Assembly: GCA_965195235.1 (NCBI GenBank)
Contig: CBDAFK010000159.1
Location: 1-55,695, forward strand
Source of the DNA: an uncultured Desulfobacterales bacterium
GTDB lineage: Bacteria; Desulfobacterota; Desulfobacteria; Desulfobacterales; ETH-SRB1
Direction: 5' to 3'
DNA length: 55,695 nt
Shown here: piece after piece, positions 8,842 to 54,435 of the stretch
Layout: each line of letters begins with the position of its first letter
How positions within the stretch are numbered: the stretch's first letter is position 1
Notes under the pieces: generated by a model
Databases searched by the model: none
Seen by the model: only the letters and a program-made list of their open reading frames with translations
What the model was told of the DNA's origin: nothing
Made by a program: the position numbers and the translations under genes

Positions 8842-9031
8842 GGTTAATGGTTCAAAGTTCCGGGGTTCACGGTTCAGGGTTAAACAGATGAGCTGATAGC
8901 TGTTAAACTGATAAACTATGAGTTATCTGAGCTCATTATGTCACCCAGGATACGCCTAACTGTGAACTGTGAACTGTAAACTGTGAACCTTGAACTGTGA
9001 ACCTTGAACTGTGAATTCTGAACCTGTGAAC
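8842..9031. repeat. Inverted heptamer arrays (ggttcaN units at 8842-8881; ctgtgaa/ccttgaa units at 8958-9031) around a small palindromic core
   Basis: Read directly. The core contains atgagct...agctcat. Confidence 0.9.
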
Positions 9032-10003
9032 GCTTACGTTATTTATACGTTGATTGTGCTTATGTTGGCTGGTCCTGTTGCTCTGGCAGCAGAGCCCGGT
9101 AATATGGTCTGGTGGGAAATGAAATCCGGCAATGTGAATGCAGTGGCTTCTCTCAAAAGGCCCAAAAGCTTAACGCTTCGCTGGGGTAAGTTTCCGCATG
9201 TACAACAGGATGCAAGTCTTCATGGCCAATCAGCAAGTCTCGATAGCGCAAGGACATGGATCAGAAATCCTGATGGCATTATATCAGAGGCCAATCTATC
9301 TCCGGACAAGGAGGCTGTAGCATTAGATTTTCCCACCAAGCTCAATCCTACTGAGTCTAACGGCCTTTATCTTGTGGGCATTCATATAAACGCCGGAGTT
9401 ATGGATATTGATTCAGACGGCACAGATGAAACGGTTCATTATTATGCAAAATATTTAATATATCATCGAAAAGATGGTGGTATTCAAGGCGATAGACCGG
9501 ACGTATTTTTTAAAGATCCGAATAAGATTGCCCTTGAAATAGGGCCGTTAAATACTTCCGGTATTGGAGAAATCCCTTCTATGAAAGCTGGCTATCAAGA
9601 AGCGCTCAAAAAGCACAAAATGAAGGTTTTATACAAAGGGCGGCCACTTGCGGATGCAGAGGTAGCTGTTTTGACTGAAAGTGGCTGGGAAAGAAAAGAG
9701 AAAACTGATTCCAGAGGTATAGTCTCAATCACTCCGGTCGAAAACGAAGCAAAAGAGAATAAATTCTTGTATGTGGTGACCTACAAAGACCTGTCAAACG
9801 GGCAATATTATTGCTCCAGCCTGATGATGTATGTGCCGAAGTCCCCACCAGAATGGATGCCCAAGGCAAAAGGATTTATCTTTTGGTTTGTCCTTGGCAC
9901 TGGTTTATTTGTTGTCTATGTTGGCTGGCGGATCCATAGAAGGCAAAAGCGCGACAGGAAGACTATGCTTGAATTTGAGAGACATAAGATCAGGAAGGAT
10001 TAG
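9011..10003 (+). CDS. DUF4198-like periplasmic protein with C-terminal TM anchor (paralog of 15597..16832)
   Basis: Signal-like N-terminus. Motifs are KIALEIGP, KVLYKGRPLADAEVAV and TDSRGIVSITP (DUF4198/carboxypeptidase-regulatory-like). C-terminal TM plus basic tail. The exact start is uncertain because it lies inside a repeat array. Confidence 0.55.
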   Translation: MNSEPVNAYVIYTLIVLMLAGPVALAAEPGNMVWWEMKSGNVNAVASLKRPKSLTLRWGKFPHVQQDASLHGQSASLDSARTWIRNPDGIISEANLSPDKEAVALDFPTKLNPTESNGLYLVGIHINAGVMDIDSDGTDETVHYYAKYLIYHRKDGGIQGDRPDVFFKDPNKIALEIGPLNTSGIGEIPSMKAGYQEALKKHKMKVLYKGRPLADAEVAVLTESGWERKEKTDSRGIVSITPVENEAKENKFLYVVTYKDLSNGQYYCSSLMMYVPKSPPEWMPKAKGFIFWFVLGTGLFVVYVGWRIHRRQKRDRKTMLEFERHKIRKD

Positions 10004-10006
10004 GAC

Positions 10007-10957
10007 GTGACTGTTACGAATTTAAGATGGATGGCGCTGATTATATCCTTTTTGGTCTTGATTCTGGGAGGATTAATAGGGCTTGATCTCGGCGGCTTCC
10101 TTCCTGTCTATGCCTGTCCTTATGTTGGGCAGACAAGGGGCGGGGTCTGTTTTTTGTTCAGACTCCAGTTCATCCTCGGAGTTGGATCCTGGGAAGCATT
10201 CAAGGCTCTGGGAGAGCACCTTCTCTATTTTTCTATTCTGGTCGTTCTTATCGGCAGGGCGTGGTGCGGATGGATCTGTCCTTTTGGATTTCTTCAGGAT
10301 GTCCTGGACTTGATCAGAAGAAAGCTCCATATAGGTTATATAAGGTTTCCCGAGCGGCTCCGGGCCAACTTAAGGTGCATGAAGTGGATATTTTTCTTTA
10401 TTGCTTTATTGATTCCCCTCTGGGTAGCCTATCCTTTATTAGCTCCATCTGTGGCCGGGGATCTGCGTCAACCTTTCTGCAGCCTGTGTCCAGGGAAATA
10501 TATCCTGCCGCTGGTTATTGGCAATCCCGATAGCGTGGCCGTTGATTTTAAAAGCGCCACTACTATTACCATGACCATTCTTGGTCTCACCTTTTCAACC
10601 ATTGCTATCATTGGCGCACTGCTGAAAAGACGATTCTGGTGCCCCTATTGTCCAATGGGCTTATTGCTTTCGTGGTACAAGAAAATCAGCTTTATAAAAC
10701 TCAAAAAAGATTGCCAGAAATGCACGATGTGCGAGGTCTGCTACAATGTTTGCCCGGTAGAGATACAACAGGTTTTTAAGGAAAGGGAAAACGAGGACGT
10801 TACTTTCACTGATTGTACTCTCTGCCTGCGATGTGTGGAATATTGTCCTGAAGACGGCGCACTCAGGGCAACCTTTCTTGGGAAAACAATCTATAAATCG
10901 ACCAGCAAGGGTTTCTTTTCCAGACAGCATATCATCCCGGGAGTTACTGATGATTAG
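10007..10957 (+). CDS. Membrane-bound 4Fe-4S polyferredoxin, NapH/MauN/CcoG-like
   Basis: Several TM helices, RAWCGWICPFG motif, and two ferredoxin motifs (CQKCTMCEVCYNVCP, CTLCLRCVEYCP). Confidence 0.8.
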   Translation: MTVTNLRWMALIISFLVLILGGLIGLDLGGFLPVYACPYVGQTRGGVCFLFRLQFILGVGSWEAFKALGEHLLYFSILVVLIGRAWCGWICPFGFLQDVLDLIRRKLHIGYIRFPERLRANLRCMKWIFFFIALLIPLWVAYPLLAPSVAGDLRQPFCSLCPGKYILPLVIGNPDSVAVDFKSATTITMTILGLTFSTIAIIGALLKRRFWCPYCPMGLLLSWYKKISFIKLKKDCQKCTMCEVCYNVCPVEIQQVFKERENEDVTFTDCTLCLRCVEYCPEDGALRATFLGKTIYKSTSKGFFSRQHIIPGVTDD

Positions 10958-11207
10958 GTGATTAGGTGATTAGGTGATTAGGTGATTAGGTGATTGGATG
11001 ATTGGATGATTGGATGATTGGATGATTGGATGATTGGATGATTGGATGATTGGATGATTGGATGATTGGATGATTAGATGATTAGATGATTAGATGATTA
11101 GATGATTAGATGATTAGATGATTAGATGATTAGATGATTAGATGATTAGATGATTAGATGATTAGATGATTAGATGATTGGATGATTGGATGATTCGTTG
11201 ATTGGAT
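10952..11207. repeat. 32-unit octamer tandem array in homogeneous blocks: 5x gattaggt, 10x gattggat, 13x gattagat, then gattggat x2, gattcgtt, gattggat
   Basis: Units counted from coordinates: 10952, 10992, 11072, 11176. The first unit supplies the TAG stop of the upstream gene. Confidence 0.97.
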
Positions 11208-11226
11208 GAGAGATAGAAGGTGAGTT

Positions 11227-11622
11227 GTGGCGGAGAAGGCGTTTAGGACATTTGAGGACCTGGAGTGCTGGCAGGCGTGTAGGGAGTTGCGAATGTTTGC
11301 AGCCAGGGTTTGTAGGGGATTTTCCAAAGAGGAAGAATATCGTCTTAAAGATCAGATTTTGCGGTCGGCTCGGAGTACGACAGCCAACATTGCGGAGGGC
11401 TATGGGCGATTCCACTATCAGGAAAACATCCAATACTGCCGCCACGCCAGAGGGTCATCATACGAAGTTTTGGATCATTTTATTACCGGAGTTGACGAGG
11501 ATCTAATCCCTGAAGCCAGTTTATCTGAATGCAGAATATTGGTGGAAAAAAGCGTTAAACTCTTGAATGGATACATTAGATATCTTGAATCAAAAAAGAA
11601 AAACAAATCAACAAATCGATGA
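11227..11622 (+). CDS. Four-helix-bundle protein (23S rRNA intervening-sequence protein / Avd-like family), copy 1
   Basis: Family hallmarks: FEDLECWQ, LKDQILRSARSTTANIAEGYGR, ARGSSYEVLDH. GTG start with SD gaaggtgag. Confidence 0.9.
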   Translation: MAEKAFRTFEDLECWQACRELRMFAARVCRGFSKEEEYRLKDQILRSARSTTANIAEGYGRFHYQENIQYCRHARGSSYEVLDHFITGVDEDLIPEASLSECRILVEKSVKLLNGYIRYLESKKKNKSTNR

Positions 11623-11684
11623 TTGGATGATTGGATGAAAAGAAAAACGAATGAACGAATCGACGAATCGACGAATCGACGAAA
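11621..11684. repeat. gattggat x2, then gaaaagaaaaa, then cgaatcga-type octamers in opposite orientation
   Basis: Read directly. Overlaps the stop codon of 4HB copy 1 and the first ORF-track start of the next gene. Confidence 0.8.
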
Positions 11685-13003
11685 TACTAATGACTAAGGA
11701 AGCTGATCAATTGCAAAAACGGAAAGCTCGTTTTGCCCGCGGTCTTGTTCGTTCAGCCGAAACAACGCTTGCTGAATTGGAGGAGAACCCGGATCTGCCA
11801 TTGAGTATGCACTATTTTATCAATATAATGAGGGAAGTATTTGTAAAGGACCGGGCGCATCGACTGCTGCTCCCATCTCAGCATCAAAGTACCAATAATA
11901 GGAAAATAATCGGCACATACTGCCTCATGGTTCCGGAAGAGCTAATCTATGCGGCAGGCGCGATACCCGTTCGACTTTGCGGAGGAAACTATGAGGCATC
12001 CCTGGCCGGAGATGAACTGGTGCCTCGTGATACATGTCCAGTGGTAAAGTCATCTATCGGTTTTACTTCTTTGAATCTGATGTCTTTATATCAGATGTGC
12101 GATGCAGTCATAGTTCCCACTACTTGTGATGCAAAGAGAAAGATGGGGGAGGAACTTTCAAAGTTTACTGAGGTCTGGATGCTCGAAGTGCCTCATATCA
12201 AAGATAGTGAAGGTTCAAGAAGACAATGGCTTCAACAACTTTACGCTTTAAAGAATAATATTGAAAAATTTACAGGTAAAAGTTTTATACGCAGGAAAAT
12301 CAGGCGCAAGGCGCTGGATGCCTCAATCAAGATGATAGGCTCGGCCCAGTACCAGGCTCGCAGGCTCTATGACATCAGGAAGTCATCTGCAGCCATAATC
12401 TCTGGGCGTGATGCAATGTTTGCAATCAATGCCTATAGTTATGATACAGCTTTTAAGTGGACAAAGGCAATGACCAGGTTGAATGATGAATTAGAAGTGC
12501 GATGCCATAAAGGTCAGTTTATTTGCAGTGAGCATACGCCGCGCATATTGATTGCAGGTTCTCCCCCGATCTTTCCTAACTGGAAAATCCCCTCTCTTAT
12601 CGAAGAGATGGGTGCTGTGATCGTAGCCGATGAGTCGTGTATGGGTAATCGTTATCTTTACGATCCTATAGGACTCACCGAAAAGTCGGTGACGGATATG
12701 ATGGTAGGCATTGCTGCCAGGTATATTATGCCTTGCGTCTGCCCATCATTTGCGCCAAATGAGGACAGGCTCTTTAGATTACTTCAAATGGCTGAAGAAT
12801 TCAGCATTGACGGCATCATCTATCATGTACTCAAAGGGTGCGTCATCTATGACTTTGAGCTGATTCGTGTTGAAAAGATAATGAAAGGCAAAAATATACC
12901 AGTGCTGCGGATAGAAACGGACTACTCTCCTGAAGACATTGAACAGCTCAGGACCCGTATTGAAGCATTTGTAGAGATGCTCGGAATAAGAAAAGAAAGA
13001 TAA
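11651..13003 (+). CDS. 2-hydroxyacyl-CoA dehydratase / benzoyl-CoA reductase BcrC/BadD / double-cubane-cluster-protein family (PF06050-like) Fe-S enzyme
   Basis: 450 aa. Family-like segments are IIGTYCLMVPEELIYAAGAIPVRLCGG, CDAVIVPTTCDAKRK and GIIYHVLKGCVIYD, with many conserved-looking Cys. Followed by an HgdC-type activator. Alternative start ATG 11690. Confidence 0.75.
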   Translation: MNESTNRRIDEILMTKEADQLQKRKARFARGLVRSAETTLAELEENPDLPLSMHYFINIMREVFVKDRAHRLLLPSQHQSTNNRKIIGTYCLMVPEELIYAAGAIPVRLCGGNYEASLAGDELVPRDTCPVVKSSIGFTSLNLMSLYQMCDAVIVPTTCDAKRKMGEELSKFTEVWMLEVPHIKDSEGSRRQWLQQLYALKNNIEKFTGKSFIRRKIRRKALDASIKMIGSAQYQARRLYDIRKSSAAIISGRDAMFAINAYSYDTAFKWTKAMTRLNDELEVRCHKGQFICSEHTPRILIAGSPPIFPNWKIPSLIEEMGAVIVADESCMGNRYLYDPIGLTEKSVTDMMVGIAARYIMPCVCPSFAPNEDRLFRLLQMAEEFSIDGIIYHVLKGCVIYDFELIRVEKIMKGKNIPVLRIETDYSPEDIEQLRTRIEAFVEMLGIRKER

Positions 13004-13078
13004 AGAGGTCAGAGGTCGGAGGTCGGCATCTTGTTCCCAGGCTTTGTCTGGGAATGCATAAGAAGGGAGGATGATTAC

Positions 13079-15435: not shown

Positions 15436-15581
15436 GAGTGATTGGATGAATGGGATGGTTGGATGATTGAGTGAATAGGCGTCACTGCTTAAGTAGCCGG
15501 ATGTTTAAATAATCTGCGAAAATCTGCGTAATCTGCGGATTGGACGAAAAGAAAAATGAATCAACAAATCAACGAAATGAG
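15436..15581. repeat. Mixed short-repeat spacer: gattggat-like units, aatctgcg units, and gaaaagaaaaa plus aatcaac units
   Basis: Read directly. Confidence 0.8.
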
Positions 15582-19554: not shown

Positions 19555-19600
19555 CATTCGTTGATTGGATGATTCGTTGATTGGATGATTGGATGGATGG
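19555..19600. repeat. Octamer array cattcgtt gattggat gattcgtt gattggat gattggat
   Basis: Read directly. Fills the macA-ATPase spacer. Confidence 0.85.
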
Positions 19601-19610
19601 AGAATAAGGA

Positions 19611-20387: not shown

Positions 20388-20435
20388 TATCATTATTCGA
20401 CGTTCGATGTTGGACGTTCGATGTTGGATGTTCAT
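20388..20435. repeat. Dispersed element atcattattcgacgttcgatgttggacgttcgatgttggatgttcat (heptamer cgatgtt-type units)
   Basis: Near-identical copy at 50137-50182. Confidence 0.85.
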
Positions 20436-21670: not shown

Positions 21671-21757
21671 AATTAGCAATTAGCAATTAACAATTAACAA
21701 TTAACAATTAACAATTGACCACTGACCATTGATAATTGATAATTGACCATTGATAAG
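21671..21757. repeat. Heptamer array aattagc x2, aattaac x4, aattgac, cactgac, cattgat, aattgat...
   Basis: Read directly. Starts at the nucleotide after the permease stop codon. Confidence 0.9.
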
Positions 21758-21810: not shown

Positions 21811-22107
21811 ATGAACTTTTCTGGTTTCGTGGTTGGCAGTGTTATGCTGTTAACAATAGCATTTACTCATATACTTGTTATTAAAGGTGAATATCATTTT
21901 GGGACAAAGTGGTGGCCAGCGCTCTTTTTTGTTGGTTTTCTCTTTATATTAGTTTCTATCTTCGTCGATAATGAACTTTTGTCAGGAAGCCTTGGTATTG
22001 TCAGCTTTTGTTTATTCTGGAGCATTTATGAACTTTTTCTGCAAAAAAAGCGTGTTGCCAAAGAATGGTTTCCCAAAAATCCAAAAAGGGACTATGATAT
22101 TGGATGA
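21811..22107 (+). CDS. Small integral membrane protein (3 TM, about 98 aa)
   Basis: SD aggagg 7 nt upstream of ATG 21811. Hydrophobic segments. The stop TGA lies in a ggatgattgg repeat unit. Confidence 0.6.
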   Translation: MNFSGFVVGSVMLLTIAFTHILVIKGEYHFGTKWWPALFFVGFLFILVSIFVDNELLSGSLGIVSFCLFWSIYELFLQKKRVAKEWFPKNPKRDYDIG

Positions 22108-25410: not shown

Positions 25411-25454
25411 GATAGGCTGAAGGCTGTTAGATCACTTCAGCCTTCAGGCTAAAC
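25411..25454. repeat. Palindromic aggctgaagg-type repeat hairpin
   Basis: gataggctgaaggctgttagatcacttcagccttcaggctaaac. Same unit family as the arrays at 45593, 46024 and 51874. Confidence 0.7.
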
Positions 25455-35089: not shown

Positions 35090-35115
35090 GCTGTTTTCCT
35101 TGCAAAGAAATTTTT

Positions 35116-45224: not shown

Positions 45225-45596
45225 ATGTTACAAACCATGCGAATATTAAAGAAAAACGGCTTTACCCTTCTCGAGGTCATGATTGCCATGTCCATCCTTG
45301 CCATAACGCTCGTTGTGGTTTTTCAATCCCAGTCCCAGAGCATATCCATGGCAGGCAGGGCAAGGTTTGAAACCACTGCATCTTTTTTAGCGCAAAGCAA
45401 AATGGCGGAGATCGAGGCGGCAAATCCGGAAGAAATAGGCTCTAACAGCGGGAATTTCGGCGATGATTTTCCCGATTATTCATGGGAGGTGGATGTGACG
45501 GAAACAGAGATCGAACTCCTGAAAAAAATTGAGGTTAAGGTTGTAAATGAGAGAATGACGTCGAATAATTCATTCAGACTTGTGCTTTATAGATAG
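45225..45596 (+). CDS. gspI: T2SS minor pseudopilin GspI-like
   Basis: Prepilin N-terminus KKNGFTLLEVMIAMSILAI. About 120 aa. First gene of the pseudopilin series. Start 45225 or 45237. Confidence 0.75.
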   Translation: MLQTMRILKKNGFTLLEVMIAMSILAITLVVVFQSQSQSISMAGRARFETTASFLAQSKMAEIEAANPEEIGSNSGNFGDDFPDYSWEVDVTETEIELLKKIEVKVVNERMTSNNSFRLVLYR

Positions 45597-45665
45597 GCTG
45601 AAGGCTGTTAGGCTGAAGACTGTTAGTTGGATAGGCTGAAGGCTGTTAAGCTGTTAGGCTGAAGG
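45593..45665. repeat. Octamer array of aggctgNN units (aggctgaa/aggctgtt)
   Basis: Read directly. The first unit supplies the TAG stop of gspI, and the last units form the SD (gaaggag) of the 4HB gene. Confidence 0.9.
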
Positions 45666-45673: not shown

Positions 45674-46027
45674 ATGCGTGATCATACTAAGCTCAGAGCG
45701 TTTGAACTATCTGACGAAGTGGTGCTTTTGATCTATCGAGCAACCAGGAAATTCCCCAAAGAGGAAATATATGGGTTGACCTCCCAAATGAGAAGAGCGG
45801 CGGTTTCAGTTCCATCAAACATAGTTGAAGGGTGCGCACGTGAGAGTCAGGCCGAGTATCTCCGCTTTCTTGAAATCGCGTTAGGCTCCTTAAGGGAGTT
45901 GCATTATCAGTTTGGTCTATCAAAACGTTTGGGGTATTCTGATGAACATGATATTTCTGATTGTGAATCAAAAATTGTGGAGACTGAGAAAGTTTTGGGT
46001 GCTCTGCTTCGATCAATGCGGAGATAG
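45674..46027 (+). CDS. Four-helix-bundle protein (23S rRNA IVS protein family), copy 2
   Basis: YGLTSQMRRAAVSVPSNIVEGCAR, FLEIALGSLRELHYQ. Confidence 0.9.
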   Translation: MRDHTKLRAFELSDEVVLLIYRATRKFPKEEIYGLTSQMRRAAVSVPSNIVEGCARESQAEYLRFLEIALGSLRELHYQFGLSKRLGYSDEHDISDCESKIVETEKVLGALLRSMRR

Positions 46028-46154
46028 GCTTAATTAGGCTGTAGGCTATTAGGCTGAAGGCTGTTAGGCTAAACAACCTAACCTAAATGCCTTCAGCCTA
46101 TAGCCTAAACAACCTAACCCTAACAGCCTACTAACAGACTACAGCCTAAAAAGC
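46024..46154. repeat. Palindromic double array: aggctNNN units forward (46024-46070), then reverse-complement units (46089-46154)
   Basis: Read directly. Supplies the TAG stop of 4HB copy 2. Confidence 0.9.
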
Positions 46155-46163
46155 TAAAAGACT

Positions 46164-46829
46164 ATGCAAAAAAGAAACGGGTTCACACTGATTGAGATAC
46201 TTATCGCCATATTTATACTGGCGACGGTCCTGACAACGGTATATGCCGCATATACCGGAACTTTCAGGATTGTAAAGGATACAGCGTATGCTGATGACAT
46301 CTACAGCATGGCAAGGGGCGCCATGAAAAGAATGACTGAAGATCTGGAGTCGTCCTGCAAGCACATGGATTCTTTCAGCTTCACCTCCGTGAAGGCCGAG
46401 ACGGAAATGGGGGAGTTCACTGAGCTGTCATTTCTTTCGTTTGCGCATCTGGACTTTGATGATGAAAAAACCTCGGGCATTGCCGTTATAAACTACTTCA
46501 TTGTGGAGGATGATGAGAAAGAGAGCTGCGTGCTGAAACGAAGGGATGAGCTGTACATGGATAAAATAGAAGGCGCGGAGGAAGATGCCTCGAGAAAAGG
46601 GGGATATGCCCTCTGTAACAGGCTGCAATCCCTGGCATATAAGTTTTACGACAGCAAAGGGGAGGAGTACGATTCCTGGGATTCGAACTCTGACCTGGAA
46701 ACACAGAAAGACAGCGCCCCGTCTGTTGTATCCATACAGATGGATTTTATAAATCCCGATGACAGAGACAAGCCTTACAGGTTTATGACAAAGGTATTTC
46801 TGCCAATGGCGGGGAGTTTAGAAGATTAG
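46164..46829 (+). CDS. gspJ: T2SS minor pseudopilin GspJ-like
   Basis: QKRNGFTLIEILIAIFILATV prepilin N-terminus, 221 aa. Confidence 0.75.
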   Translation: MQKRNGFTLIEILIAIFILATVLTTVYAAYTGTFRIVKDTAYADDIYSMARGAMKRMTEDLESSCKHMDSFSFTSVKAETEMGEFTELSFLSFAHLDFDDEKTSGIAVINYFIVEDDEKESCVLKRRDELYMDKIEGAEEDASRKGGYALCNRLQSLAYKFYDSKGEEYDSWDSNSDLETQKDSAPSVVSIQMDFINPDDRDKPYRFMTKVFLPMAGSLED

Positions 46830-47009
46830 AGGATTAGAAGGTTAGAAGATTAGAAGGTTAGAAGATTAGAAGGTTAGAAAATTAGAAGGTTGGAAGATTG
46901 GAAGATTAGAAGGTTGGAAAATTAGAAGGTTGGAAGGTGGGAAGGTGGGAAGATTGGAAGGTTAGAAGGTTGGAAGGTTGGAAGATTAGAAGGTTGGAAG
47001 GTGAGGAAG
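46818..47009. repeat. 24-unit octamer array ttRgaaNN (gattagaa/ggttagaa/ggttggaa...)
   Basis: Units counted by hand. Encodes the last 3 aa plus the TAG stop of gspJ and fills the spacer to within 1 nt of the next ATG. Confidence 0.95.
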
Positions 47010-47010: not shown

Positions 47011-47394
47011 ATGGAAAGGAAACGGGATATTAGGCATTTCAGGGATTTGGATGTTTACAGGCGGGCTTTTGATGCTGCAATGGAGATTTTTCAAATGACC
47101 AAGGGGTTCCCTTCTGAAGAGAAATTTTCTCTGGTTGATCAGATTCGAAGGTCATCAAGATCTGTATGCGCCAACTTGGCAGAAGGGTGGCGGAAAAGAC
47201 GTTATCCTGCCGTTTTCAAGAACAAGGTGACAGATTCTATGCAAGAAGCATCCGAAACGCAGTGCTGGTTGGAATTTTCTTTGGCATGCAAGTATATTAA
47301 TAAAAATACCTTCAGTAAGCTTGATAATGAATACGAGCAGCTTATTTCAATGCTCAATTCCATGGAAATGAACGCTAAGAAATTCTGTTTTTAA
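47011..47394 (+). CDS. Four-helix-bundle protein (23S rRNA IVS protein family), copy 3
   Basis: FRDLDVYRRAF, LVDQIRRSSRSVCANLAEGWRKR. Confidence 0.9.
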   Translation: MERKRDIRHFRDLDVYRRAFDAAMEIFQMTKGFPSEEKFSLVDQIRRSSRSVCANLAEGWRKRRYPAVFKNKVTDSMQEASETQCWLEFSLACKYINKNTFSKLDNEYEQLISMLNSMEMNAKKFCF

Positions 47395-47401
47395 AGGCTT
47401 G

Positions 47402-47440
47402 TTCTTCTAATTTTCCTAACTTCTTACCTTCTGATTTTCT
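47402..47440. repeat. Short array ttcttcta attttcct aacttctt accttctg attttct, the reverse-complement orientation of the 46818 array
   Basis: Read directly. Confidence 0.8.
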
Positions 47441-47460
47441 TGCATTACAAAGGGGTCGGA

Positions 47461-49977: not shown

Positions 49978-50278
49978 GGATTAGAGGATTAGAGGATTAG
50001 AAGGTGGGAAGAAATGAACATCGAACATCGAACGTCCAACATCGAATCTTGAATGGAAAAAATGAAGAAACAAAAATAGTCTTTGGATATTTGTATTGTT
50101 TTTTCAATTTTAAAATAATTTGAAGAGCGAAGCGACATCATTATTCGACGTTCGATGTTCAATGTTCGATGTTGGACGTTCATCTTTTTATATAAAACAT
50201 CGAATGTTGAATGGAAAGAAACAAAAGGCAAAAGACTGGAAAAAAAAGATGAACATCGAATATTGAATGAGAAAAAGG
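49978..50278. repeat. Composite repeat spacer
   Basis: Components are gattagag octamers, gaacatc heptamers (50014-50050), an inverted copy (50140-50182), and three catcgaatNttgaatgRaaa modules. Read directly. Confidence 0.85.
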
Positions 50279-50341: not shown

Positions 50342-50887
50342 TTGGATTTTTGGACAAAATTTAAGTTAAAACTGACAAGGCAGGAAAGATATTACGTATC
50401 TGCATGCGTTGCCCTAATTGCTCTTTTTATCATCTTCCAGTTTATCCTGTCTCCTTTTTTTGAGGCAAAGGGGAATGTCAAACGTTCTATTCAGGCAAAG
50501 GAAAAGACACTGAAAGAGCTTGTCTCCCTAGGTTCGGAATACGGGGCGCTGAAAGAGGATTCGGTGGACATCAAGAAGAGGCTTGCCCTCAGATCTAAAA
50601 ATTTTACTCTGTTTTCCTTTCTCGAAAAACAGGCCGGTCGAAGCGGGATAAAACCAGGCATAAAATATATGAAACCCTCTGCCTCAATAGACAAGGGAAA
50701 CTACAAAGAATCATCTGTGGAAATGAAACTGGAAAACATCACGCTGAAACAGCTCGTCGAATATTTGTATCTCATAGAGTCGCCTGAAAATCTGGTCAGG
50801 ATCAAGAGGATTTCCGTAAAACAAAGCAAGGGAAGCCCGGAATACATGACCGCGCTGATCCATCTGGTGACATATCTGGAAGATTAG
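50342..50887 (+). CDS. gspM: GspM-like T2SS protein
   Basis: N-terminal TM (YYVSACVALIALFIIFQFIL), then ..LKQLVEYLYLIES..VRIKRISVKQ... TTG start is tentative. Confidence 0.65.
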   Translation: MDFWTKFKLKLTRQERYYVSACVALIALFIIFQFILSPFFEAKGNVKRSIQAKEKTLKELVSLGSEYGALKEDSVDIKKRLALRSKNFTLFSFLEKQAGRSGIKPGIKYMKPSASIDKGNYKESSVEMKLENITLKQLVEYLYLIESPENLVRIKRISVKQSKGSPEYMTALIHLVTYLED

Positions 50888-51039
50888 AAGGTGAGAAGAT
50901 TAGAAGGTGAGAAGATTAGAAGATTGGCTCGTTGCTCGTTGCTCGTTGCTCGTTGCTGGTTGCTCGTTGCTGGTTGCTCGTTGAACTGTAAACTGTGAAC
51001 TGTGAACTGTGAACCCTGAACCTTTGAACCGTGAACCGT
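50877..51039. repeat. Three concatenated arrays: gattagaaggtgagaa octamers, gctcgtt heptamers x8, and gaactgt/gaacc heptamers
   Basis: Read directly. Encodes the last residues and the TAG stop of gspM. Confidence 0.95.
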
Positions 51040-51868: not shown

Positions 51869-51873
51869 GAAGA

Positions 51874-51980
51874 GATAGGCTGTAGGCATTTAGGCTGTAG
51901 GCTGAAGGTTACAAAAACTAACAGCCTACAGTCTAAACAACATATAGCCTTCAGTCTAAAAGCCTACAGCCTAAACAACC
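51874..51980. repeat. Palindromic double array of aggctgNN units (forward 51874-51915, reverse 51920-51980)
   Basis: Read directly. Confidence 0.9.
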
Positions 51981-51995
51981 TGAGCAATTAAGATT

Positions 51996-52832
51996 ATGAC
52001 AACCAAATACCATACAATATTTATACTTGCGGCAATAGCAGCTCTGTCCTTTCTGTGTGTGGATATCTTTTACAAGACGCTCGATGCAAAACTTTCCGGA
52101 TTTCGGACGGAAGAGATATCCTTCAAAAAAACTGTCACACACAAGGCTGCAAGAAAACCGTCTCTTAATGCTTACAGGGTAATTTCAGACAGGAACCTGT
52201 TCGGTTCGATTGACAAAGCAGGTGGAAAAATACAGATCAATGTTGATGAGCTGGAACCAACAAAATTGGGGCTTGCCCTTCTTGGAACTGTTTCAGGCAC
52301 CGGAGGGTTTGACTTTGCAGTTATTGAAGAAAAGGACAAAAAAAAACAGGGTCTTTTCAAAGAGGGTGATAGCGTCGCAGCAGCTACCATCATCAGAATC
52401 ATGAGGGGCATTGTTGTTTTAAGAGTGGCTGACAGGGATGAGATACTGAAGATGGAGGAAGGCGATCATAGATCAAAGGTCGGAGGTCGGAGGTCAGAAG
52501 TCAGAGGTATAAAGAACGTAATAAAGGTAAAGAAAACCGATATCGACAACGCCTTTAAAAACATGGGGAAAATGCTTGCCCAGGTTCGCATAAGACCCTA
52601 TTTTTCCTCAGGAAAGTCGGACGGATTCATGGTAAGCAGAATAAAGCCCGGAAGCATCTTTCAGAAAATGGGCATGCAAAACGGGGATATTATACAGGGC
52701 GTTGACAACGAGCCAATTAAGAGCCCGGATGAAATGATGAAACTGTATAACGGGCTAAAATCCGGTTCAGAAATAAACCTTAACATCAAAAGAAAAGGAA
52801 GACAGGAAGAACTGAGTTATATATTCAAATAA
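51996..52832 (+). CDS. gspC: GspC-like protein with C-terminal PDZ domain; contains an in-frame 6-heptamer insertion
   Basis: N-terminal TM. PDZ-like ..GFMVSRIKPGSIFQKMGMQNGDIIQGVDNEPIKS... Heptamers at 52464-52505. Confidence 0.65.
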   Translation: MTTKYHTIFILAAIAALSFLCVDIFYKTLDAKLSGFRTEEISFKKTVTHKAARKPSLNAYRVISDRNLFGSIDKAGGKIQINVDELEPTKLGLALLGTVSGTGGFDFAVIEEKDKKKQGLFKEGDSVAAATIIRIMRGIVVLRVADRDEILKMEEGDHRSKVGGRRSEVRGIKNVIKVKKTDIDNAFKNMGKMLAQVRIRPYFSSGKSDGFMVSRIKPGSIFQKMGMQNGDIIQGVDNEPIKSPDEMMKLYNGLKSGSEINLNIKRKGRQEELSYIFK

Positions 52833-52910
52833 AACAGATCGTTGCTGGTTTATTTTGGAGCAAGGCCCGTGATGCCGTACGTTACGCAAACACGGTTTGC
52901 TCGCTCCATA

Positions 52911-53084
52911 TTTGTTGCTGGTTGCTCGTCAAAACTCCGAACCTTTGAACCTGTGAACCTTTGAACCTTTGAACCTTTGAACCTTGAACCTTTGAACCTT
53001 TGAACCTTGAACCCTGAACACCTGAGTTTTGAATGTTGAATATTGAATTTTAAATTCAAAATTATATTTAACCCTTGAACCTTT
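52911..53084. repeat. Array of cctttgaa/ccttgaa units (8/7 nt), plus gttgctg and ttgaat units
   Basis: Read directly. Confidence 0.9.
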
Positions 53085-53088
53085 ACTC

Positions 53089-54027
53089 ATGTATACATCA
53101 TATTTTGGTCTCAACGAAAATCCATTTAATCTGACTCCGGATCCCAGATATCTCTTTCTGAGTTCCCAGCACAGGGAAGCGCTCAACCATCTGATCTATG
53201 GGATAAATGAAAGAAAGGGGTTTGTTCTTATTACAGGGGGGATTGGGACAGGCAAGACTACAATCTCCAGGGCATTTCTGTCTGTTCTGGATAAATCGGT
53301 TGACAGCGCCCTGATTTTCAACTCCGCTGTCTCGGATATGGAACTTCTACAGACAATCAACAGGGAATTCGGAGTCAAATCAGAAAGGGGGAGGCCCACC
53401 AAAAAACGCCTTATCAGCGCCCTGAATGCATTTCTCCTGAAAAATTTCGCTGCCGGCAGAAATGCGGTCCTCCTGATAGATGAAGCGCAGAACCTCCCCT
53501 TAAGCGTCCTCGAACAGATACGGATGCTTTCAAATCTCGAAACCGACAGGGAAAAGCTGCTTCAGATAGCGCTTCTCGGTCAGCCGGAACTTCAAAAGCT
53601 CCTCGATCTGCCATCTTTAAAGCAGCTCAACGAAAGAATCACGGTAAGGTATGACCTCAAGCCTCTCAACAGCGAACAGGTCCGGCAATACATAGAACAC
53701 AGACTGATAATAGCCGCCGAAAATAATGGAATTTTACGATTTCCAGATGGTGTCTGCAAAATTATCCATGGCTACGCAGAGGGTATTCCCAGGCGCATCA
53801 ACGCAATCTGCGACAGAGCGCTCCTCATAGCCTATACCAGGGGCACTTCATCTATCGATAAAAATATAATAAGACAGGCAGTTGACGATATCGGCGGAAA
53901 TTATCTGAAAGGCAAAAACAGAAAAACAGACTTTCTGCTTGCAATCCTGCTTGCGCTTACCATTCTCGTGTCGGCAGGTATAATATTCAGGAATGACATA
54001 CTGAATTTTCTTAACGGAACTAACTGA
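53089..54027 (+). CDS. gspA: ExeA/GspA-type AAA ATPase
   Basis: YFGLNENPFNLTPDPRYLFLSSQHREAL and Walker A GGIGTGKTT, typical of ExeA/MshM. C-terminal TM. Confidence 0.85.
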   Translation: MYTSYFGLNENPFNLTPDPRYLFLSSQHREALNHLIYGINERKGFVLITGGIGTGKTTISRAFLSVLDKSVDSALIFNSAVSDMELLQTINREFGVKSERGRPTKKRLISALNAFLLKNFAAGRNAVLLIDEAQNLPLSVLEQIRMLSNLETDREKLLQIALLGQPELQKLLDLPSLKQLNERITVRYDLKPLNSEQVRQYIEHRLIIAAENNGILRFPDGVCKIIHGYAEGIPRRINAICDRALLIAYTRGTSSIDKNIIRQAVDDIGGNYLKGKNRKTDFLLAILLALTILVSAGIIFRNDILNFLNGTN

Positions 54028-54033
54028 GCAGAA

Positions 54034-54435
54034 ATGAGCTATATTAATGATGCCCTGAAGAAGGTGCAGAAAGAAAAAGATAGTCTCTATCAGCGCTACG
54101 GCAACATTATATCCGACCCTGTCTATCACCGGACCGGACGCGGAAAAAGGTGGATGATTACAGGCAGCGTGATTGTTTTGATTCTGCTTGCACTGTCGGT
54201 CTTTATACTGTTAAGATACAATGCCTCTTCGGGTACAGACAACAGCAACATGGCCATTATACAGGATGCAGGGGATAAGACAGAAGTCAGAAGTCGGAGG
54301 TCAGAGGCCAGAGATCAGAGGTCGGAGATCAGAAGTCAGAAGTCAGAGGTCAGAGGTCAGAGGTCGGAGGTCGGAGATCAGAGGTCGGAGGTCAGGGGTC
54401 AGGGGTCAGAAGTCAGAGGTCAGATGAAAATTTAA
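54034..54435 (+). CDS. GspB-like N-terminal domain, TM, and heptamer-array-encoded C-terminus
   Basis: MSYINDALKKVQKEKD resembles the GspB N-terminus. TM at VIVLILLALSVFILL. The C-terminal about 50 aa (SEVRxxR heptads) are encoded by the 54281-54420 array. Confidence 0.45.
   Translation: MSYINDALKKVQKEKDSLYQRYGNIISDPVYHRTGRGKRWMITGSVIVLILLALSVFILLRYNASSGTDNSNMAIIQDAGDKTEVRSRRSEARDQRSEIRSQKSEVRGQRSEVGDQRSEVRGQGSEVRGQMKI
54281..54424. repeat. 20 tandem heptamers cagaggt/cagaagt/cggaggt inside the ORF
   Basis: Units counted by hand. All three forward frames are open across the array. Confidence 0.95.

What the first reader, a model, noticed from the sequence alone, without database searches (positions are those of the whole stretch)
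8842..54427. Many intergenic spacers hold 7- or 8-nt tandem arrays drawn from a few unit families
Seen in sequence: at least 20 arrays occur, mostly in the spacers of the plus-strand operons. They lie at 8842-9031, 10952-11207, 11621-11684, 13005-13027, 15436-15581, 19555-19600, 20388-20435, 21671-21757, 22102-22270, 25411-25454, 33273-33357, 35116-35155, 45593-45665, 46024-46154, 46818-47009, 47402-47440, 49978-50278, 50877-51039, 51874-51980, 52911-53084 and 54281-54424.

Unit families recur at distant sites:
- gattNgNt (8 nt)
- ttRgaaNN (8 nt)
- aggctgNN (8 nt)
- cctttgaa (8/7 nt)
- ctgtgaa (7 nt)
- gctcgtt (7 nt)
- gaacatc (7 nt)
- cagaggt (7 nt)
- aattaac (7 nt)
- tagctct (7 nt)

Many sites contain both orientations of one family, giving long hairpins. 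The arrays begin within a few nt of stop codons and end close to the next start.

Established knowledge: short heptamer intergenic arrays are, to my recollection, reported in some large sulfur bacteria and filamentous cyanobacteria. I cannot verify any relationship here.

Inference: the density, family structure and inverted architecture argue for an active, genome-wide repeat system. It might involve slippage-prone spacers, protein or RNase recognition sites, or a non-autonomous mobile element class, rather than random microsatellites.
Basis: partly seen in the sequence, partly recalled or inferred. Interest (0 to 1): 0.7.

Follow-up and report, generated by a model that had tools for sequence, protein, structure and literature searches.

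The report
Heptamer arrays flank four-helix-bundle genes
The 7-8-base tandem repeats between genes here are real, and many are the inverted arms, or apparent leftovers, of small gene cassettes encoding a four-helix-bundle protein, the same design as the protein-coding intervening sequence of 23S rRNA, which gives a testable lead on the unexplained heptamer repeats of cyanobacteria and sulfur bacteria.

Summary
There are 28 period-7/8 arrays, against 0.4 in dinucleotide shuffles. 88% of array bases are intergenic, and periods 5, 6 and 9-12 are absent. Independent assemblies of related Thermodesulfobacteriota carry the same unit families at the same spacers, as does a finished isolate genome (Desulfosarcina alkanivorans), so this is not an artefact.

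All three PF05635/TIGR02436 four-helix-bundle (4HB; S23p/Avd-like) genes in the window sit between a forward array and reverse-complement copies of the same unit. In 56 independent metagenomic 4HB loci, 66% have such inverted arms, against 0.4% of controls. So do named Nostoc, Calothrix, Anabaena, Gemmatirosa and Geminocystis examples, and a true 23S rRNA intervening sequence in Azospirillum.

The unit sequence tracks the 4HB clade in three clades, each found on contigs of very different GC content. The cassettes are present or absent at orthologous spacers, occur as ORF-deleted copies, and vary in copy number between samples.

Best reading: the arrays are arms, ORF-less hairpins and solo arms of IVS-like 4HB cassettes lodged inside operons. 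They expand by slippage and probably spread by recombination between arrays. How they move and what the protein does are inferred, not shown. The Y1 transposase is not linked to the arrays.

The parts
8842..9040 (+). ORF-less hairpin element of family D: forward GGTTCA/ACGGTTC units (8842-8880), an 80-nt loop, then reverse-complement (GAACTGT/GAACCTT)n (8958-9040) running into the start of the DUF4198-like gene
   Evidence: TRF; sequence; fold z=-6.4; matches 50982-51037
10949..11209 (+). Upstream arm of cassette A: (GATGATTR) x32.6. It begins inside the TAG stop of the Fer4 gene.
   Evidence: TRF (score 382); sequence
11227..11622 (+). 4HB_a gene (PF05635 / TIGR02436 four-helix-bundle protein) with its own Shine-Dalgarno site (AAGGTGA)
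   Evidence: Pfam E=3.5e-25; TIGR02436 86 bits against cut-off 24
11602..11685 (+). Downstream arm of cassette A: (AACAAATC)x2 inside the ORF end, (GATGATTG)x2.6, loop GAAAAGAAAAAC, then (AACGAATC)x4.8. It ends at the probable true HGD-D start, ATG 11690.
   Evidence: TRF; the 62-nt module recurs at 22201-22262
13005..13027 (+). Family G array (GAGGTCR)x3 between the HGD-D stop and the BcrAD start; it contains GGAGGT
   Evidence: TRF
15436..15581 (+). Degenerate family A units (15436-15500) followed by AATCTGCG units of period 9-10 (15509-15537)
   Evidence: TRF; weak fold (z=-0.8)
19555..19605 (+). Family A solo array (GATTCGTT/GATTGGAT), starting 1 nt after the HlyD stop
   Evidence: TRF; matches 10985-11209; fold z=-3.5
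20388..20435 (+). Family E arm (GATGTTC/GACGTTC) just upstream of the MacB start. It is a 57-nt module, 91% identical to 50137-50193.
   Evidence: TRF
21671..21757 (+). Family H arrays (AATTAAC)x6.6 and (AATTGAY), starting directly after the MacB stop
   Evidence: TRF; fold z=-3.0
22099..22270 (+). Family A: forward array beginning in the DUF4491 stop codon, then a hairpin (GATTCGTTGATT / loop AAATGAAAAGAAAAAC / AATCAACGAATC)
   Evidence: TRF
25415..25449 (+). Family B mini-hairpin GGCTGAAGGCTG...CAGCCTTCAGGC. It is an inverted repeat, not a tandem array.
   Evidence: fold z=-3.9
33273..33357 (-). AATCTGCG-family hairpin (period 9-10) in the leader of the DUF11 gene, downstream of a c-di-GMP-I-GGC riboswitch
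   Evidence: TRF; Rfam; fold z=-6.8
35115..35155 (-). Family J: (TTAGCTC)x2.9 abutting (GCTAATG)x3.4, upstream of the PilZ gene
   Evidence: TRF; fold z=-2.8; J-like arms flank 4HB genes of Calothrix and Pseudanabaena
45593..45665 (+). Upstream arm of cassette B: (TAGGCTGA/AGGCTGT)n, beginning in the TAG stop of gspI
   Evidence: TRF
45674..46027 (+). 4HB_b gene (PF05635/TIGR02436; closest solved structure 2GSC, X. campestris XCC0516)
   Evidence: Pfam E=9e-34; PDB E=1.6e-26; dN/dS 0.06-0.28 in its clade
46024..46157 (+). Downstream part of cassette B: forward B units, a loop, then reverse-complement B units (hairpin)
   Evidence: TRF; fold z=-7.3
46818..47002 (+). Upstream arm of cassette C: (TTAGAAGR)x23. 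It encodes the last residues and the TAG stop of GspJ.
   Evidence: TRF (score 195). The same site in another sample has about 5 fewer units.
47011..47394 (+). 4HB_c gene (PF05635/TIGR02436)
   Evidence: Pfam E=6.6e-33; more than 120 homologues at >=80% identity under several phylum labels
47395..47448 (+). Downstream reverse-complement arm of cassette C (CTTCTAA/CCTTCTG units). The true GspK start is ATG 47461.
   Evidence: the same arm follows a TTAGAGGG array without an ORF in L002; pairs with the upstream array in the MFE fold
49978..50278 (+). Composite spacer: family C units (49978-50001), then a family E hairpin (GAACATC 50016-50046 paired with GATGTTC 50144-50181) and further E fragments
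   Evidence: TRF; fold z=-7.0
50879..51036 (+). Three abutting arrays: C (TTAGAAGR, contains the gspM stop), F (GCTCGTT x8), D (GAACTGT/GAACCGT x7.7). The last ends 10 nt before the gspN ATG.
   Evidence: TRF; orthologous spacers keep the same order of families
51874..51980 (+). ORF-less family B hairpin between gspN and gspC. The orthologous spacer in L005 holds a 4HB_b gene.
   Evidence: TRF; fold z=-7.6
52473..52508 (+). Family G array inside the gspC linker, in frame.
   Evidence: TRF; 6 units in the window and L001, 3 in L002, 7 in L005 (a frameshift), absent in L004/L010/L013
52841..53084 (+). Family F units interrupted by a 65-nt nested small element (52851-52915), then family D (GAACCTTT)x9.6 and (TGAATTT), ending just before the exeA-like ATG
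   Evidence: TRF
54281..54424 (+). Family G array (CAGAGGT)x20.6 with no stop codon in any frame, read through as a C-terminal tail of the 133-aa ORF
   Evidence: TRF; homologues align only to the first 60-91 residues

Best explanation
**What it is.** The arrays are the repeat arms of small, promoter-less cassettes built around a four-helix-bundle (4HB) gene of family PF05635/TIGR02436, also called S23p and related to Avd. The layout is: forward array of 7-8-nt units, Shine-Dalgarno site, 4HB ORF, reverse-complement array of the same unit. This is the design of the ORF-bearing intervening sequence (IVS) of 23S rRNA, but here the cassettes sit in the spacers of ordinary operons, on the same strand as the host genes.

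**Shown:**
- Each 4HB clade has its own unit sequence.
- The arrays gain and lose units.
- Cassettes are present or absent at orthologous spacers.
- ORF-deleted copies exist.

**Inferred:**
- Units are gained and lost by slippage.
- Arrays and cassettes are copied between spacers by recombination between arrays of the same family.
- The pentameric 4HB protein recognises its own unit. This would explain why the unit stays constant where synonymous sites are saturated.
- In the operon transcript, paired arms form long stems that RNase III cuts, as it does in 23S IVSs.

**Why the insertions may be tolerated.** The period is not a multiple of three and many units contain a stop codon. The arrays therefore end translation in any frame, and they often supply the host gene's stop codon.
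For: **In the window.** All three 4HB genes lie between forward and reverse-complement arrays of one family.

**Across other loci:**
- 64 metagenomic 4HB loci were picked by protein pattern only. 70% have inverted flanks (score >=14) against 0.4% of 560 control positions in the same loci (Mann-Whitney p=1e-26).
- Strong periodic runs in the flanks are almost all of period 7 or 8: 57 of 59 scoring flanks, out of 128 examined.
- After removing near-duplicates, 66% of 56 clusters have inverted arms.

**Unit tracks clade:**
- Units differ by at most 1 base in 62% of locus pairs whose proteins are >=60% identical, against 5-6% of other pairs.
- Clade B carries AGGCTGW on contigs of GC 0.35-0.63.
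- Clade C carries TTAGARGR in unrelated gene contexts.
- Clade D carries ACGGTTN / GAACYGT under Desulfosarcina, Nitrospirae, Gammaproteobacteria and Cloacimonetes labels.

**The protein is under purifying selection.** dN/dS is 0.06-0.28. Units are conserved even between pairs whose dS is saturated.

**Presence/absence and decay:**
- The J-K junction is an ATGA overlap in L001 and L004 but a 610-bp cassette in the window.
- 4HB_b sits at I-J in the window but at gspN-gspC in L005, where its 91% aa identity exceeds that of the flanking genes. The window has an empty B hairpin at that spacer.
- L004 and an L002 copy keep the arms but have lost most of the ORF.

**Named genomes.** Nostoc, Calothrix, Anabaena, Pseudanabaena, Geminocystis and Gemmatirosa show the same layout. 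So does a bona fide 23S IVS in Azospirillum, with arms of five heptamers.

**Literature.** The Coxiella IVS has 2-3 tandem heptamers before the S23p ATG, and RNase III cuts in the stem (PMC4990558).

**Other support:**
- Array density is higher in loci that hold a 4HB gene: 5.9 against 1.5 per 10 kb, p=2e-4. This comparison is confounded by relatedness.
- About 80% of neighbouring genes are co-oriented with the 4HB gene.
Against: - Most arrays in the window (about 15 of 21 sites) are not next to a 4HB gene, and no ORF remnant is detectable in their loops.
- Families E, F, H and the AATCTGCG family had no cognate 4HB in my sample.
- The 4HB protein has no known catalytic activity, and I found no target-site duplication or defined element end.
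- Mismatches between arms show no excess of G:U-compatible changes on the sense strand (73 against 70), and most are transversions (218 of 361). So there is no sign that RNA pairing is under selection.
- The whole cassette C does not fold better than shuffles (z=-0.8).
- Gain and loss at the J-K junction cannot be polarised, because the relatives are mosaic.
- Phylum labels of MAGs can be wrong. The spread of GC content is the firmer evidence for host diversity.
Confidence: 0.6

Rival explanations
1. The arrays come first. They are slippage-prone long simple-sequence repeats kept up by a polymerase bias towards 7-nt units. 4HB genes are a separate mobile gene that merely prefers to insert into such arrays or hairpin tips. 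Most arrays would then have nothing to do with 4HB.
For: - Arrays far outnumber 4HB genes.
- In cassettes A and B the ORF is bracketed by forward units on both sides, as if it had been inserted into an existing array.
- Heptamers are the commonest long repeat unit in many bacteria (Mrazek 2007, as summarised in PMC4679880).
- Copy-number changes are frequent.
Against: - The same unit accompanies one 4HB clade across contigs with GC from 0.35 to 0.63 and saturated dS. Each such host would need to have had that array already.
- ORF-deleted copies keep both arms.
- Identical 50-60-nt composite modules recur at distant spacers, which local slippage cannot produce.
Confidence: 0.2
2. The arrays are host regulatory RNA elements, with the 4HB genes as passengers. 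They could be binding platforms for S1, Csp or CsrA-type proteins, or processing and stabilising hairpins that set the relative expression of cistrons.
For: - The arrays are placed precisely, from the stop codon to just before the next start.
- Family order is conserved at orthologous spacers.
- Genes downstream of reverse-complement arms often lack a Shine-Dalgarno site, while the 4HB ORFs have strong ones. MacGregor reported the same for TAACTGA repeats (PMC4679880).
- Some hairpins are strong.
Against: - The same junction is an ATGA overlap with no spacer at all in close relatives, so the arrays are dispensable.
- There is no wobble asymmetry.
- Copy number and unit order differ between samples that encode an identical protein.
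- One array frameshifts gspC in L005.
Confidence: 0.13
3. A REP/RAYT-type system: the Y1 (IS200-like) transposase at 39423-40415 mobilises the hairpins as single-stranded DNA.
For: - A Y1_Tnp domain is present, with weak similarity to REP-associated tyrosine transposase.
- One 4HB locus (L128) has a Y1 gene 430 nt downstream.
Against: - The Y1 gene is flanked by its own perfect 24-nt inverted repeat, GGGGTCAAATCTTTATTCTTGAAT (39370-39393 and 40404-40427), which is unrelated to any array family.
- Only 1 of 131 loci (665 kb) has a homologue.
- It scores 61 bits against the RAYT cut-off of 80.
Confidence: 0.03
4. The arrays are assembly or scaffolding artefacts of this contig.
For: Short-read contigs that carry the same genes break 26-56 nt upstream of the 4HB ATG, inside the arrays.
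Against: - The same families occur at the same spacers in MAGs assembled by different groups.
- They also occur in the complete genome of an isolate and in finished cyanobacterial plasmids.
Confidence: 0.01

Closest known systems
ORF-containing intervening sequence (IVS) of 23S rRNA (Leptospira, Coxiella; S23p ORF)
   Same: - A PF05635 four-helix-bundle ORF sits in the loop between terminal inverted repeats.
- The arms contain tandem heptamers whose copy number varies (Coxiella GACAGAT x2-3, PMC4990558).
- An Azospirillum 23S IVS fetched here has arms of five heptamers.
- Distribution is sporadic and horizontal transfer is suspected.
   Different: - Here the elements lie in spacers of protein-coding operons, not in helix 25 or 45 of 23S rRNA.
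- The arms are much longer (up to 32 units).
- Several clades coexist in one genome, each with its own unit.
- ORF-less hairpins and solo arms abound.
- RNase III excision has not been tested here.
Cyanobacterial STRR heptamers and bacterial long simple-sequence repeats (Mazel 1990, from my own knowledge; Mrazek 2007; GGGAATC in Xanthomonas, PMC4692102)
   Same: - Tandem 7-nt units, mostly intergenic and within operons, with several families per genome.
- Convergent inverted pairs were noted in Xanthomonas.
- 4HB hits on plasmids are dominated by Nostocales, and their flanks carry heptamer arrays.
   Different: - The unit sequences differ, and the organism is a Thermodesulfobacteriota MAG.
- 8-nt units and mixed 15/23-nt periods are common here.
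- None of the papers I could read links these repeats to PF05635 genes.
TAACTGA direct repeats of marine Beggiatoaceae, cyanobacteria and Bacteroidetes (MacGregor 2015, PMC4679880)
   Same: - Family D units (GAACTGT, AAACTGT, TAACTGT, GAACCGT) share the AACTG core.
- Like TAACTGA sets, they end a few nt upstream of start codons that lack a Shine-Dalgarno site.
- Relatives of clade D 4HB genes carry TAACTGA-like units in their arms.
   Different: - There is no tandem TAACTGA in the window.
- Many other families are present.
- Inverted pairs are common here but rare in the Beggiatoaceae report (1 of 170 sets).
- That study proposed S1, Csp or CsrA as binders, not a 4HB protein.
REPIN-RAYT systems (PMC3116915)
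   Same: - A short repeat family is dispersed through intergenic space, and one small protein gene is flanked by its own repeats in inverted orientation.
- Each protein clade has its own repeat family.
   Different: - The protein is a non-catalytic four-helix bundle, not a Y1 transposase.
- The repeats are tandem arrays of 7-8 nt, not single 20-nt palindromes.
- The analogy concerns organisation only.
Foldback transposons and MITEs (from my own knowledge)
   Same: - Long terminal inverted repeats built from short tandem units.
- Many copies have no coding capacity.
- Other small elements nest inside them.
   Different: - Foldback transposons are eukaryotic.
- No transposase and no target-site duplication were found here.
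Avd of diversity-generating retroelements
   Same: Homologous fold: weak hits to bAvd, DivGenRetAVD and phrog_3206.
   Different: - None of the about 50 proteins scanned in the window has a reverse transcriptase domain, and I saw no template/variable repeat pair.
- Scores are below the Avd cut-off (31 against 80 bits).

Membership tests
ORF-containing 23S rRNA intervening sequence (S23p type) | Encodes a PF05635/TIGR02436 four-helix-bundle protein | tested here: met
   Three genes score above the Pfam and TIGR02436 cut-offs. PDB 2GSC matches at E=1.6e-26.
ORF-containing 23S rRNA intervening sequence (S23p type) | ORF bracketed by terminal inverted repeats able to form a stem | tested here: met
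   Seen in the window cassettes and in 66-70% of relatives, against 0.4% of controls.
ORF-containing 23S rRNA intervening sequence (S23p type) | Inserted in helix 25 or 45 of the 23S rRNA gene | tested here: not met
   The window has no rRNA. The cassettes lie between gspI/J/K and between the Fer4 and HGD-D genes.
ORF-containing 23S rRNA intervening sequence (S23p type) | Excised from the transcript by RNase III | not testable with these tools
   Needs RNA end-mapping. Shown only for Coxiella and Leptospira IVSs (PMC4990558).
Long simple-sequence repeats / STRR-type heptamer arrays | Tandem units of 5-11 nt (mostly 7), longer than chance allows, mainly intergenic | tested here: met
   28 arrays against 0.43 in shuffles; 88% of array bases intergenic.
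Long simple-sequence repeats / STRR-type heptamer arrays | STRR unit sequences of heterocystous cyanobacteria (CCCCAGT and others, recalled from memory) | not tested
   None of the unit families found here is CCCCAGT. The closest relatives are Thermodesulfobacteriota MAGs.
TAACTGA repeats (MacGregor 2015) | Direct tandem repeats of exactly TAACTGA | tested here: not met
   No TAACTGATAACTGA on either strand; only 5 single copies. The related units are GAACTGT and GAACCGT.
TAACTGA repeats (MacGregor 2015) | Sets end within a few nt upstream of a start codon, in forward orientation | tested here: met
   Family D arrays end 10 nt before gspN ATG 51047, shortly before exeA-like ATG 53089, and at the DUF4198-like start.
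REPIN-RAYT | A Y1 (RAYT) transposase flanked by the dispersed repeat it mobilises | tested here: not met
   The inverted repeats flanking Y1 are unrelated to the arrays. RAYT model 61 bits against cut-off 80. A homologue occurs in 1 of 131 loci.
Diversity-generating retroelement | Avd together with a reverse transcriptase and a template/variable repeat pair | tested here: not met
   None of about 50 window proteins has an RT domain. The Avd model scores 31 bits against cut-off 80.
MITE / foldback element | Terminal inverted repeats, no coding capacity, target-site duplication | tested here: inconclusive
   Inverted arms and ORF-less copies are present. No duplication or defined ends were found when filled and empty sites were compared.

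The most novel reading that the evidence does not exclude
PF05635 four-helix-bundle proteins are sequence-specific partners of heptamer and octamer arrays throughout bacteria. Each pentameric 4HB clade would bind, maintain and perhaps generate its own 7-8-nt unit. The classical unexplained repeats would then be the footprint of one class of IVS-like selfish cassette, organised like REPIN-RAYT pairs but without a known recombinase. Those repeats include cyanobacterial STRRs, Xanthomonas GGGAATC, Beggiatoaceae TAACTGA and the arrays here.

The fixed polarity fits arrays being built symmetrically outward from a break or insertion point: the G-rich strand faces inward on both sides in most loci. 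An Avd-like protein working with a polymerase or reverse transcriptase could do this. That last step is pure speculation.
Probability: 0.25. Interest if true: 0.9.

Novelty: new variant of a known kind. Interest (0 to 1): 0.72.

Why it matters
Tandem heptamer arrays in bacterial intergenic regions have been described since 1990 without an accepted origin or function. The S23p/IVS protein family, with more than 6,000 close relatives per query in my two searches, has no known role.

Three results make both questions testable: the arrays are the arms of 4HB cassettes, each protein clade keeps its own unit across very different hosts, and the 23S IVS is one special case of the same design. The tests are:
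- Does a 4HB protein bind its own unit?
- Does it change array length or cassette mobility?
- Does RNase III cut operon transcripts at the arms?

There are practical consequences too:
- These elements break short-read assemblies.
- They supply stop codons and reshape gene ends.
- They can frameshift genes. The gspC array has 3, 6 or 7 units in different relatives.
- They cause start codons to be mis-called.

Tried and rejected
1. Exact-protein look-up of HGD-D: not on record. Look-ups of 4HB_b and 4HB_c found only the same T2SS context, on contigs that break inside the arrays.
2. A seven-sequence 4HB alignment was too divergent for the metagenome scan. I replaced it with a three-sequence alignment.
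3. Viral-contig scans with 4HB_a and 4HB_c found no relatives.
4. PADLOC gave no defence-system hit for the 4HB proteins or Y1.
5. The wobble-asymmetry test for RNA-level selection was negative, 73 against 70.
6. The whole-cassette fold was unexceptional, z=-0.8.
7. Stop codons in all three frames are only modestly enriched in the arms: 53% against 35% upstream, 52% against 26% downstream.
8. A search for 4HB remnants in the window's spacers found none.
9. Y1 as the cognate protein is rejected.
10. Comparing filled and empty sites gave no target-site duplication and no way to tell gain from loss.
11. Literature searches found no paper that links heptamer arrays in general to PF05635. The library lacks most subscription journals, so earlier work may exist.

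Full report
**1. The observation**

Tandem Repeats Finder reports arrays at 19 of the 21 listed sites. A separate periodicity scan finds strong runs only at period 7 (seven runs) and period 8 (seven runs), one at period 4, and none at 5, 6 or 9-12.

At TRF score >=40 there are 28 arrays of period 7/8 or sums of these (14, 15, 16, 21, 23). Thirty dinucleotide shuffles give a mean of 0.43 and a maximum of 3.

With a gene map from five Pfam scans, 88% of array bases are intergenic although only 16.7% of the window is. Arrays make up 14% of intergenic DNA and 0.4% of coding DNA.

Ten of the twelve arrays that follow a gene begin within 3 nt of its stop codon. In six cases the stop codon is part of the first unit. 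Several arrays end a few nucleotides before the next start.

Blastn of the window against itself shows that composite modules of 33-77 nt recur at distant spacers. This is dispersal, not only local slippage.

Hairpins are real for a subset:
- z = -7.6 at 51870-51990
- z = -7.3 at 46028-46163
- z = -7.0 at 50005-50200
- z = -6.8 at 33268-33362 (minus strand)
- z = -6.4 at 8840-9045
- z about -0.7 at 11600-11690 and 15436-15545, which are not hairpins

Small corrections:
- Two listed sites (25411-25454 and 47402-47440) are inverted arms rather than tandem arrays.
- The AATCTGCG family has period 9-10.
- One array (54281-54424) is read through as a protein tail.
- One array inside gspC (52473-52508) was missed.

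**2. Not an artefact, and not confined to this contig**

A scan of one genome per species with the GspL-like protein returned 29 loci, all from Thermodesulfobacteriota-type MAGs. The closest are 'Desulfobacteraceae bacterium SB_S3_bin18' (92% aa identity) and 'Eth-SRB1' (85%).

Period-7/8 arrays are as dense in the closest relatives (9.6, 7.9 and 6.9 per 10 kb) as in the window (6.6). Density falls to about 0.5 in distant relatives.

Orthologous type II secretion spacers carry the same families in the same order:
- TAGGCTG after the gspI stop
- TTAGAAGR after other stops
- GAACYGT just before the gspN ATG

Copy numbers differ between relatives.

A finished genome of a cultured isolate, Desulfosarcina alkanivorans, has at least 12 heptamer arrays in one 20-kb exopolysaccharide operon.

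Short-read contigs carrying the window's own 4HB genes end 26-56 nt upstream of the ATG. Assemblies break in the arrays rather than create them.

**3. What the arrays belong to**

The window has three genes of family PF05635/TIGR02436. This family is also called the '23S rRNA intervening sequence protein', 'S23p' or 'four helix bundle protein', and I abbreviate it 4HB.

Each gene lies in an operon spacer on the host strand, has its own strong Shine-Dalgarno site, and is bracketed by one unit family:
- **Cassette A.** (GATGATTR)x32, then 4HB_a, then (AACAAATC)x2, (GATGATTG)x2.6, a loop and (AACGAATC)x4.8.
- **Cassette B.** (TAGGCTGW)n, then 4HB_b, then forward units, a loop and reverse-complement units.
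- **Cassette C.** (TTAGAAGR)x23, then 4HB_c, then a reverse-complement arm.

The three proteins are only 21-29% identical to each other. Each has a different unit.

**4. The association is general**

A metagenome scan used only two peptide patterns inside the ORF.

Of the 64 loci with enough flanking DNA:
- 70% have upstream and downstream flanks that align as reverse complements (score >=14). Only 0.4% of 560 control positions in the same loci do (Mann-Whitney p=1e-26).
- 57 of 128 flanks have a strong periodic run of period 7 or 8, against 26 of 1120 control flanks.

After collapsing near-identical loci, 66% of 56 clusters have inverted arms.

About 80% of neighbouring genes on each side are co-oriented with the 4HB gene. 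The median gap from the upstream stop is 88 nt. The upstream arm is G-rich in 85% of loci and the downstream arm C-rich in 67%.

A tblastn of 4HB_b against plasmids hits 25 records, mostly Nostocales. These are the organisms in which STRR heptamers were first described.

I inspected ten named examples. All carry heptamer arrays on at least one side, and eight have arrays upstream and downstream, usually as reverse complements:
- N. punctiforme: (GTCAGGA)n
- Anabaena sp. 90: (CAGGTGA)n, between cas6 and cas4
- N. edaphicum: (GTAGGGA)n
- Calothrix brevissima: (GGGTGTA)n
- Geminocystis and Gemmatirosa: the same layout

**5. Link to the 23S IVS**

One plasmid hit, Azospirillum lipoferum AZO_p2, lies inside a 23S rRNA gene (Rfam LSU model, 500 bits). 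It is a classical ORF-bearing IVS.

Its arms are five heptamers (CAGAGGA CGGATGA CAGAGGA CGGAGGA CAGAAAG) and their reverse complement.

Published work on the Coxiella IVS (PMC4990558) describes:
- an S23p ORF in the loop of a 28-bp stem of terminal inverted repeats
- RNase III cleavage in that stem
- two or three tandem GACAGAT heptamers before the ATG, with the number varying among strains
- the X. campestris homologue as a homopentameric ring

The closest solved structure to 4HB_b is that protein, 2GSC.

The window's cassettes therefore have the IVS design but sit in operon spacers.

**6. Unit sequence tracks protein clade**

Among locus pairs whose 4HB proteins are >=60% identical, the flanking units differ by at most one base in 62%. 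For less similar pairs the figure is 5-6%.

Three clades show this independently:
- **Clade B** (>=63% identity to 4HB_b). Most members with a detectable periodic arm carry AGGCTGT, AAGGCTG or AAGACTG. The contigs range in GC from 0.35 to 0.63.
- **Clade C.** More than 120 homologues are >=80% identical to 4HB_c, under Deltaproteobacteria, Spirochaetales, Anaerolineae and Bacteroidetes labels. Those I inspected, in unrelated gene contexts, have GGTTAGAG/TTAGAAGR upstream and the reverse complement downstream, or (L123/L124) only the reverse-complement arm.
- **Clade D** (the 4HB found in L010). Homologues at >=79% identity are labelled Desulfosarcina, Nitrospina, Nitrospirae, Gammaproteobacteria and Cloacimonetes. 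All inspected have ACGGTTN upstream and (G/T)AACYGT downstream, including TAACTGA-like units.

Clade D ties the window's 'pre-start' family D to a 4HB clade. It also ties it to the TAACTGA repeats of Beggiatoaceae, although the window has no tandem TAACTGA.

Within clade B, dN/dS is 0.06-0.28. Many pairs with saturated dS still share the unit. So the protein is functional, and the unit is conserved beyond neutral expectation.

**7. Mobility and decay**

- The gspJ-gspK junction is an ATGA stop/start overlap in L001 and L004.
  - In the window it holds the 610-bp cassette C.
  - That cassette replaces the last five codons of gspJ and supplies its stop codon.
- A 4HB_b gene lies between gspI and gspJ in the window and in L001.
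  - In L005 a 91%-identical copy lies between gspN and gspC. That is more similar than the flanking genes (67-76%).
  - At that spacer the window and L001 have an ORF-less family B hairpin.
- L010 has a clade D cassette at gspN-gspC. L004 has the same arms, but only the last 35 or so codons of the ORF remain.
- L002 has another cassette, plus an 'empty' copy that keeps the first nine codons.
- In L002, the downstream arm of cassette C directly follows a TTAGAGGG array with no ORF between them.
- The same gspJ-gspK site in another sample encodes an identical 4HB_c protein. Its array has about five fewer units, in a different order.
- Among the 29 related loci, those holding a 4HB gene have more arrays: 5.9 against 1.5 per 10 kb, p=2e-4. 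This comparison is confounded by relatedness.

**8. How it most likely works**

Shown:
- the architecture of the cassettes
- its generality across loci and named genomes
- clade-specific units
- purifying selection on the protein
- presence/absence at orthologous sites
- ORF-less derivatives
- copy-number change

Inferred:
- *Spread and ORF loss.* Arrays of one family at many spacers act as portable homology, so cassettes and hairpins spread and lose their ORF by recombination between arrays. In cassettes A and B, forward units lie on both sides of the ORF, which would allow precise loss.
- *Protein-unit recognition.* The 4HB pentamer recognises its own unit.
- *RNA processing.* Paired arms in the operon transcript are RNase III substrates, as in IVSs.
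- *Tolerance.* Units often contain TAG or TGA, and the period is not a multiple of three. The arrays therefore stop translation in any frame, which would make insertions between coupled genes tolerable. The enrichment of stops in all three frames is only modest.

Points against:
- Most arrays are not next to a 4HB gene, and no ORF remnants remain in their loops.
- Four families have no cognate 4HB in my sample.
- There is no target-site duplication, and gain cannot be told from loss.
- There is no sense-strand wobble excess between arms (73 against 70).
- Cassette C as a whole folds no better than shuffles.

**9. Rivals**

- *Arrays come first, and 4HB genes insert into them.* This remains possible (0.2). 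It fits poorly with one unit accompanying one clade across hosts of very different base composition.
- *Host regulatory elements.* This fits the placement and the missing Shine-Dalgarno sites. But the spacers are absent in close relatives and vary within populations (0.13).
- *The Y1 transposase.* It has its own unrelated 24-nt inverted repeats, and a homologue occurs in 1 of 131 loci. Confidence 0.03.
- *Artefact.* Refuted.

**10. Novelty**

Already known:
- intergenic heptamer arrays (STRR; long simple-sequence repeats; TAACTGA, PMC4679880; GGGAATC with convergent pairs, PMC4692102)
- S23p IVSs with inverted ends, and in Coxiella a few heptamers (PMC4990558)

Not described in any paper I could search:
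- PF05635 genes are generally embedded between inverted 7-8-nt arrays.
- The unit is clade-specific.
- Such cassettes populate operon spacers.
- ORF-deleted copies keep both arms, which suggests that many 'orphan' arrays are their derivatives.

The library lacks most subscription journals, so earlier work may exist. I therefore rate this as a new variant of a known kind, with interest 0.72.

Noticed in passing
window 33407-33483 (-) and 33610-33686 (-): Two c-di-GMP-I-GGC riboswitch aptamers (69.6 and 68.4 bits) lie in tandem, about 203 bp apart. The flanking sequence is duplicated, including a 23-nt repeat (CTTTTCCCAGGCAACCCGGCTAT x2.2) at 33379-33429 and 33582-33632. They sit upstream of the DUF11 gene, and an AATCTGCG hairpin lies between the proximal aptamer and the start codon.
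   Followed up: partly
window 52473-52508; L005 14150-14300; L001, L002: A CAGAGGT-family heptamer array sits in frame in the gspC linker. It has 6 units in the window and L001, 3 in L002 and 7 in L005, where it shifts the reading frame. It is absent in L004, L010 and L013. It could be a slippage switch or a pseudogene of type II secretion protein C.
   Followed up: partly
window 54034-54435: The 133-aa ORF owes its last 48 or so residues to a stop-free (CAGAGGT)x20 array. Homologues align only to the first 60-91 residues.
   Followed up: partly
window 39370-39393 and 40404-40427, flanking 39423-40415: The Y1_Tnp plus HTH gene (330 aa) is bracketed by a perfect 24-nt inverted repeat, GGGGTCAAATCTTTATTCTTGAAT (26 nt by blastn). 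It looks like a self-contained element unrelated to the arrays.
   Followed up: partly
window 52851-52915; L002 I-J and C-ExeA spacers: A 65-nt small element (TATTTTGGAGCAAGGC...CTCCATATTTGT) is nested inside GCTCGTT/GTTGCTGGTT arrays. Copies occur in different spacers of L002. This resembles the very small elements reported inside cyanobacterial heptamer arrays (recalled from memory).
   Followed up: no
L013 I-J and C-ExeA spacers; L003 L-M spacer: Another MITE-like element, with ends TCGTAAAAAGTCG...CGACTTTTTACGA, is inserted inside AAGGTTC arrays. In L001 and L003, a 170-nt element with ends AACCTAAATTGAGCG...CGCTCAACTTAGGTT is inserted just after the first codons of gspJ.
   Followed up: no
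L118 (Pseudanabaena galeata) and L135 (Anabaena sp. 90): In two cyanobacterial plasmids a 4HB cassette sits between cas6 and cas4 of a CRISPR-Cas operon. The units differ: AAAGCTA in one, CAGGTGA in the other.
   Followed up: no
window 11651 vs 11690; 47440 vs 47461; 9011: Mechanical ORF starts fall inside arrays. The likely true starts are ATG 11690 (HGD-D) and ATG 47461 (GspK). The arrays will mislead gene callers.
   Followed up: partly
window 31022-31628 (+), 40473-40877 (-), 28220-28321, 36250-36300: The array-poor minus-strand block carries mobile or defence-type genes: two short overlapping ORFs on the plus strand that were not scanned, a PIN toxin, and Y1. It also carries other dispersed repeats (GGGGTC/GACCCC and GGGGACGT...ACGTCCCC palindromes; 31961-32015 matches 33696-33750).
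   Followed up: no
window 51047-51868: The 273-aa 'hypothetical' protein in the T2SS operon matches GspN (TIGR04411, 102 bits against cut-off 50).
   Followed up: yes
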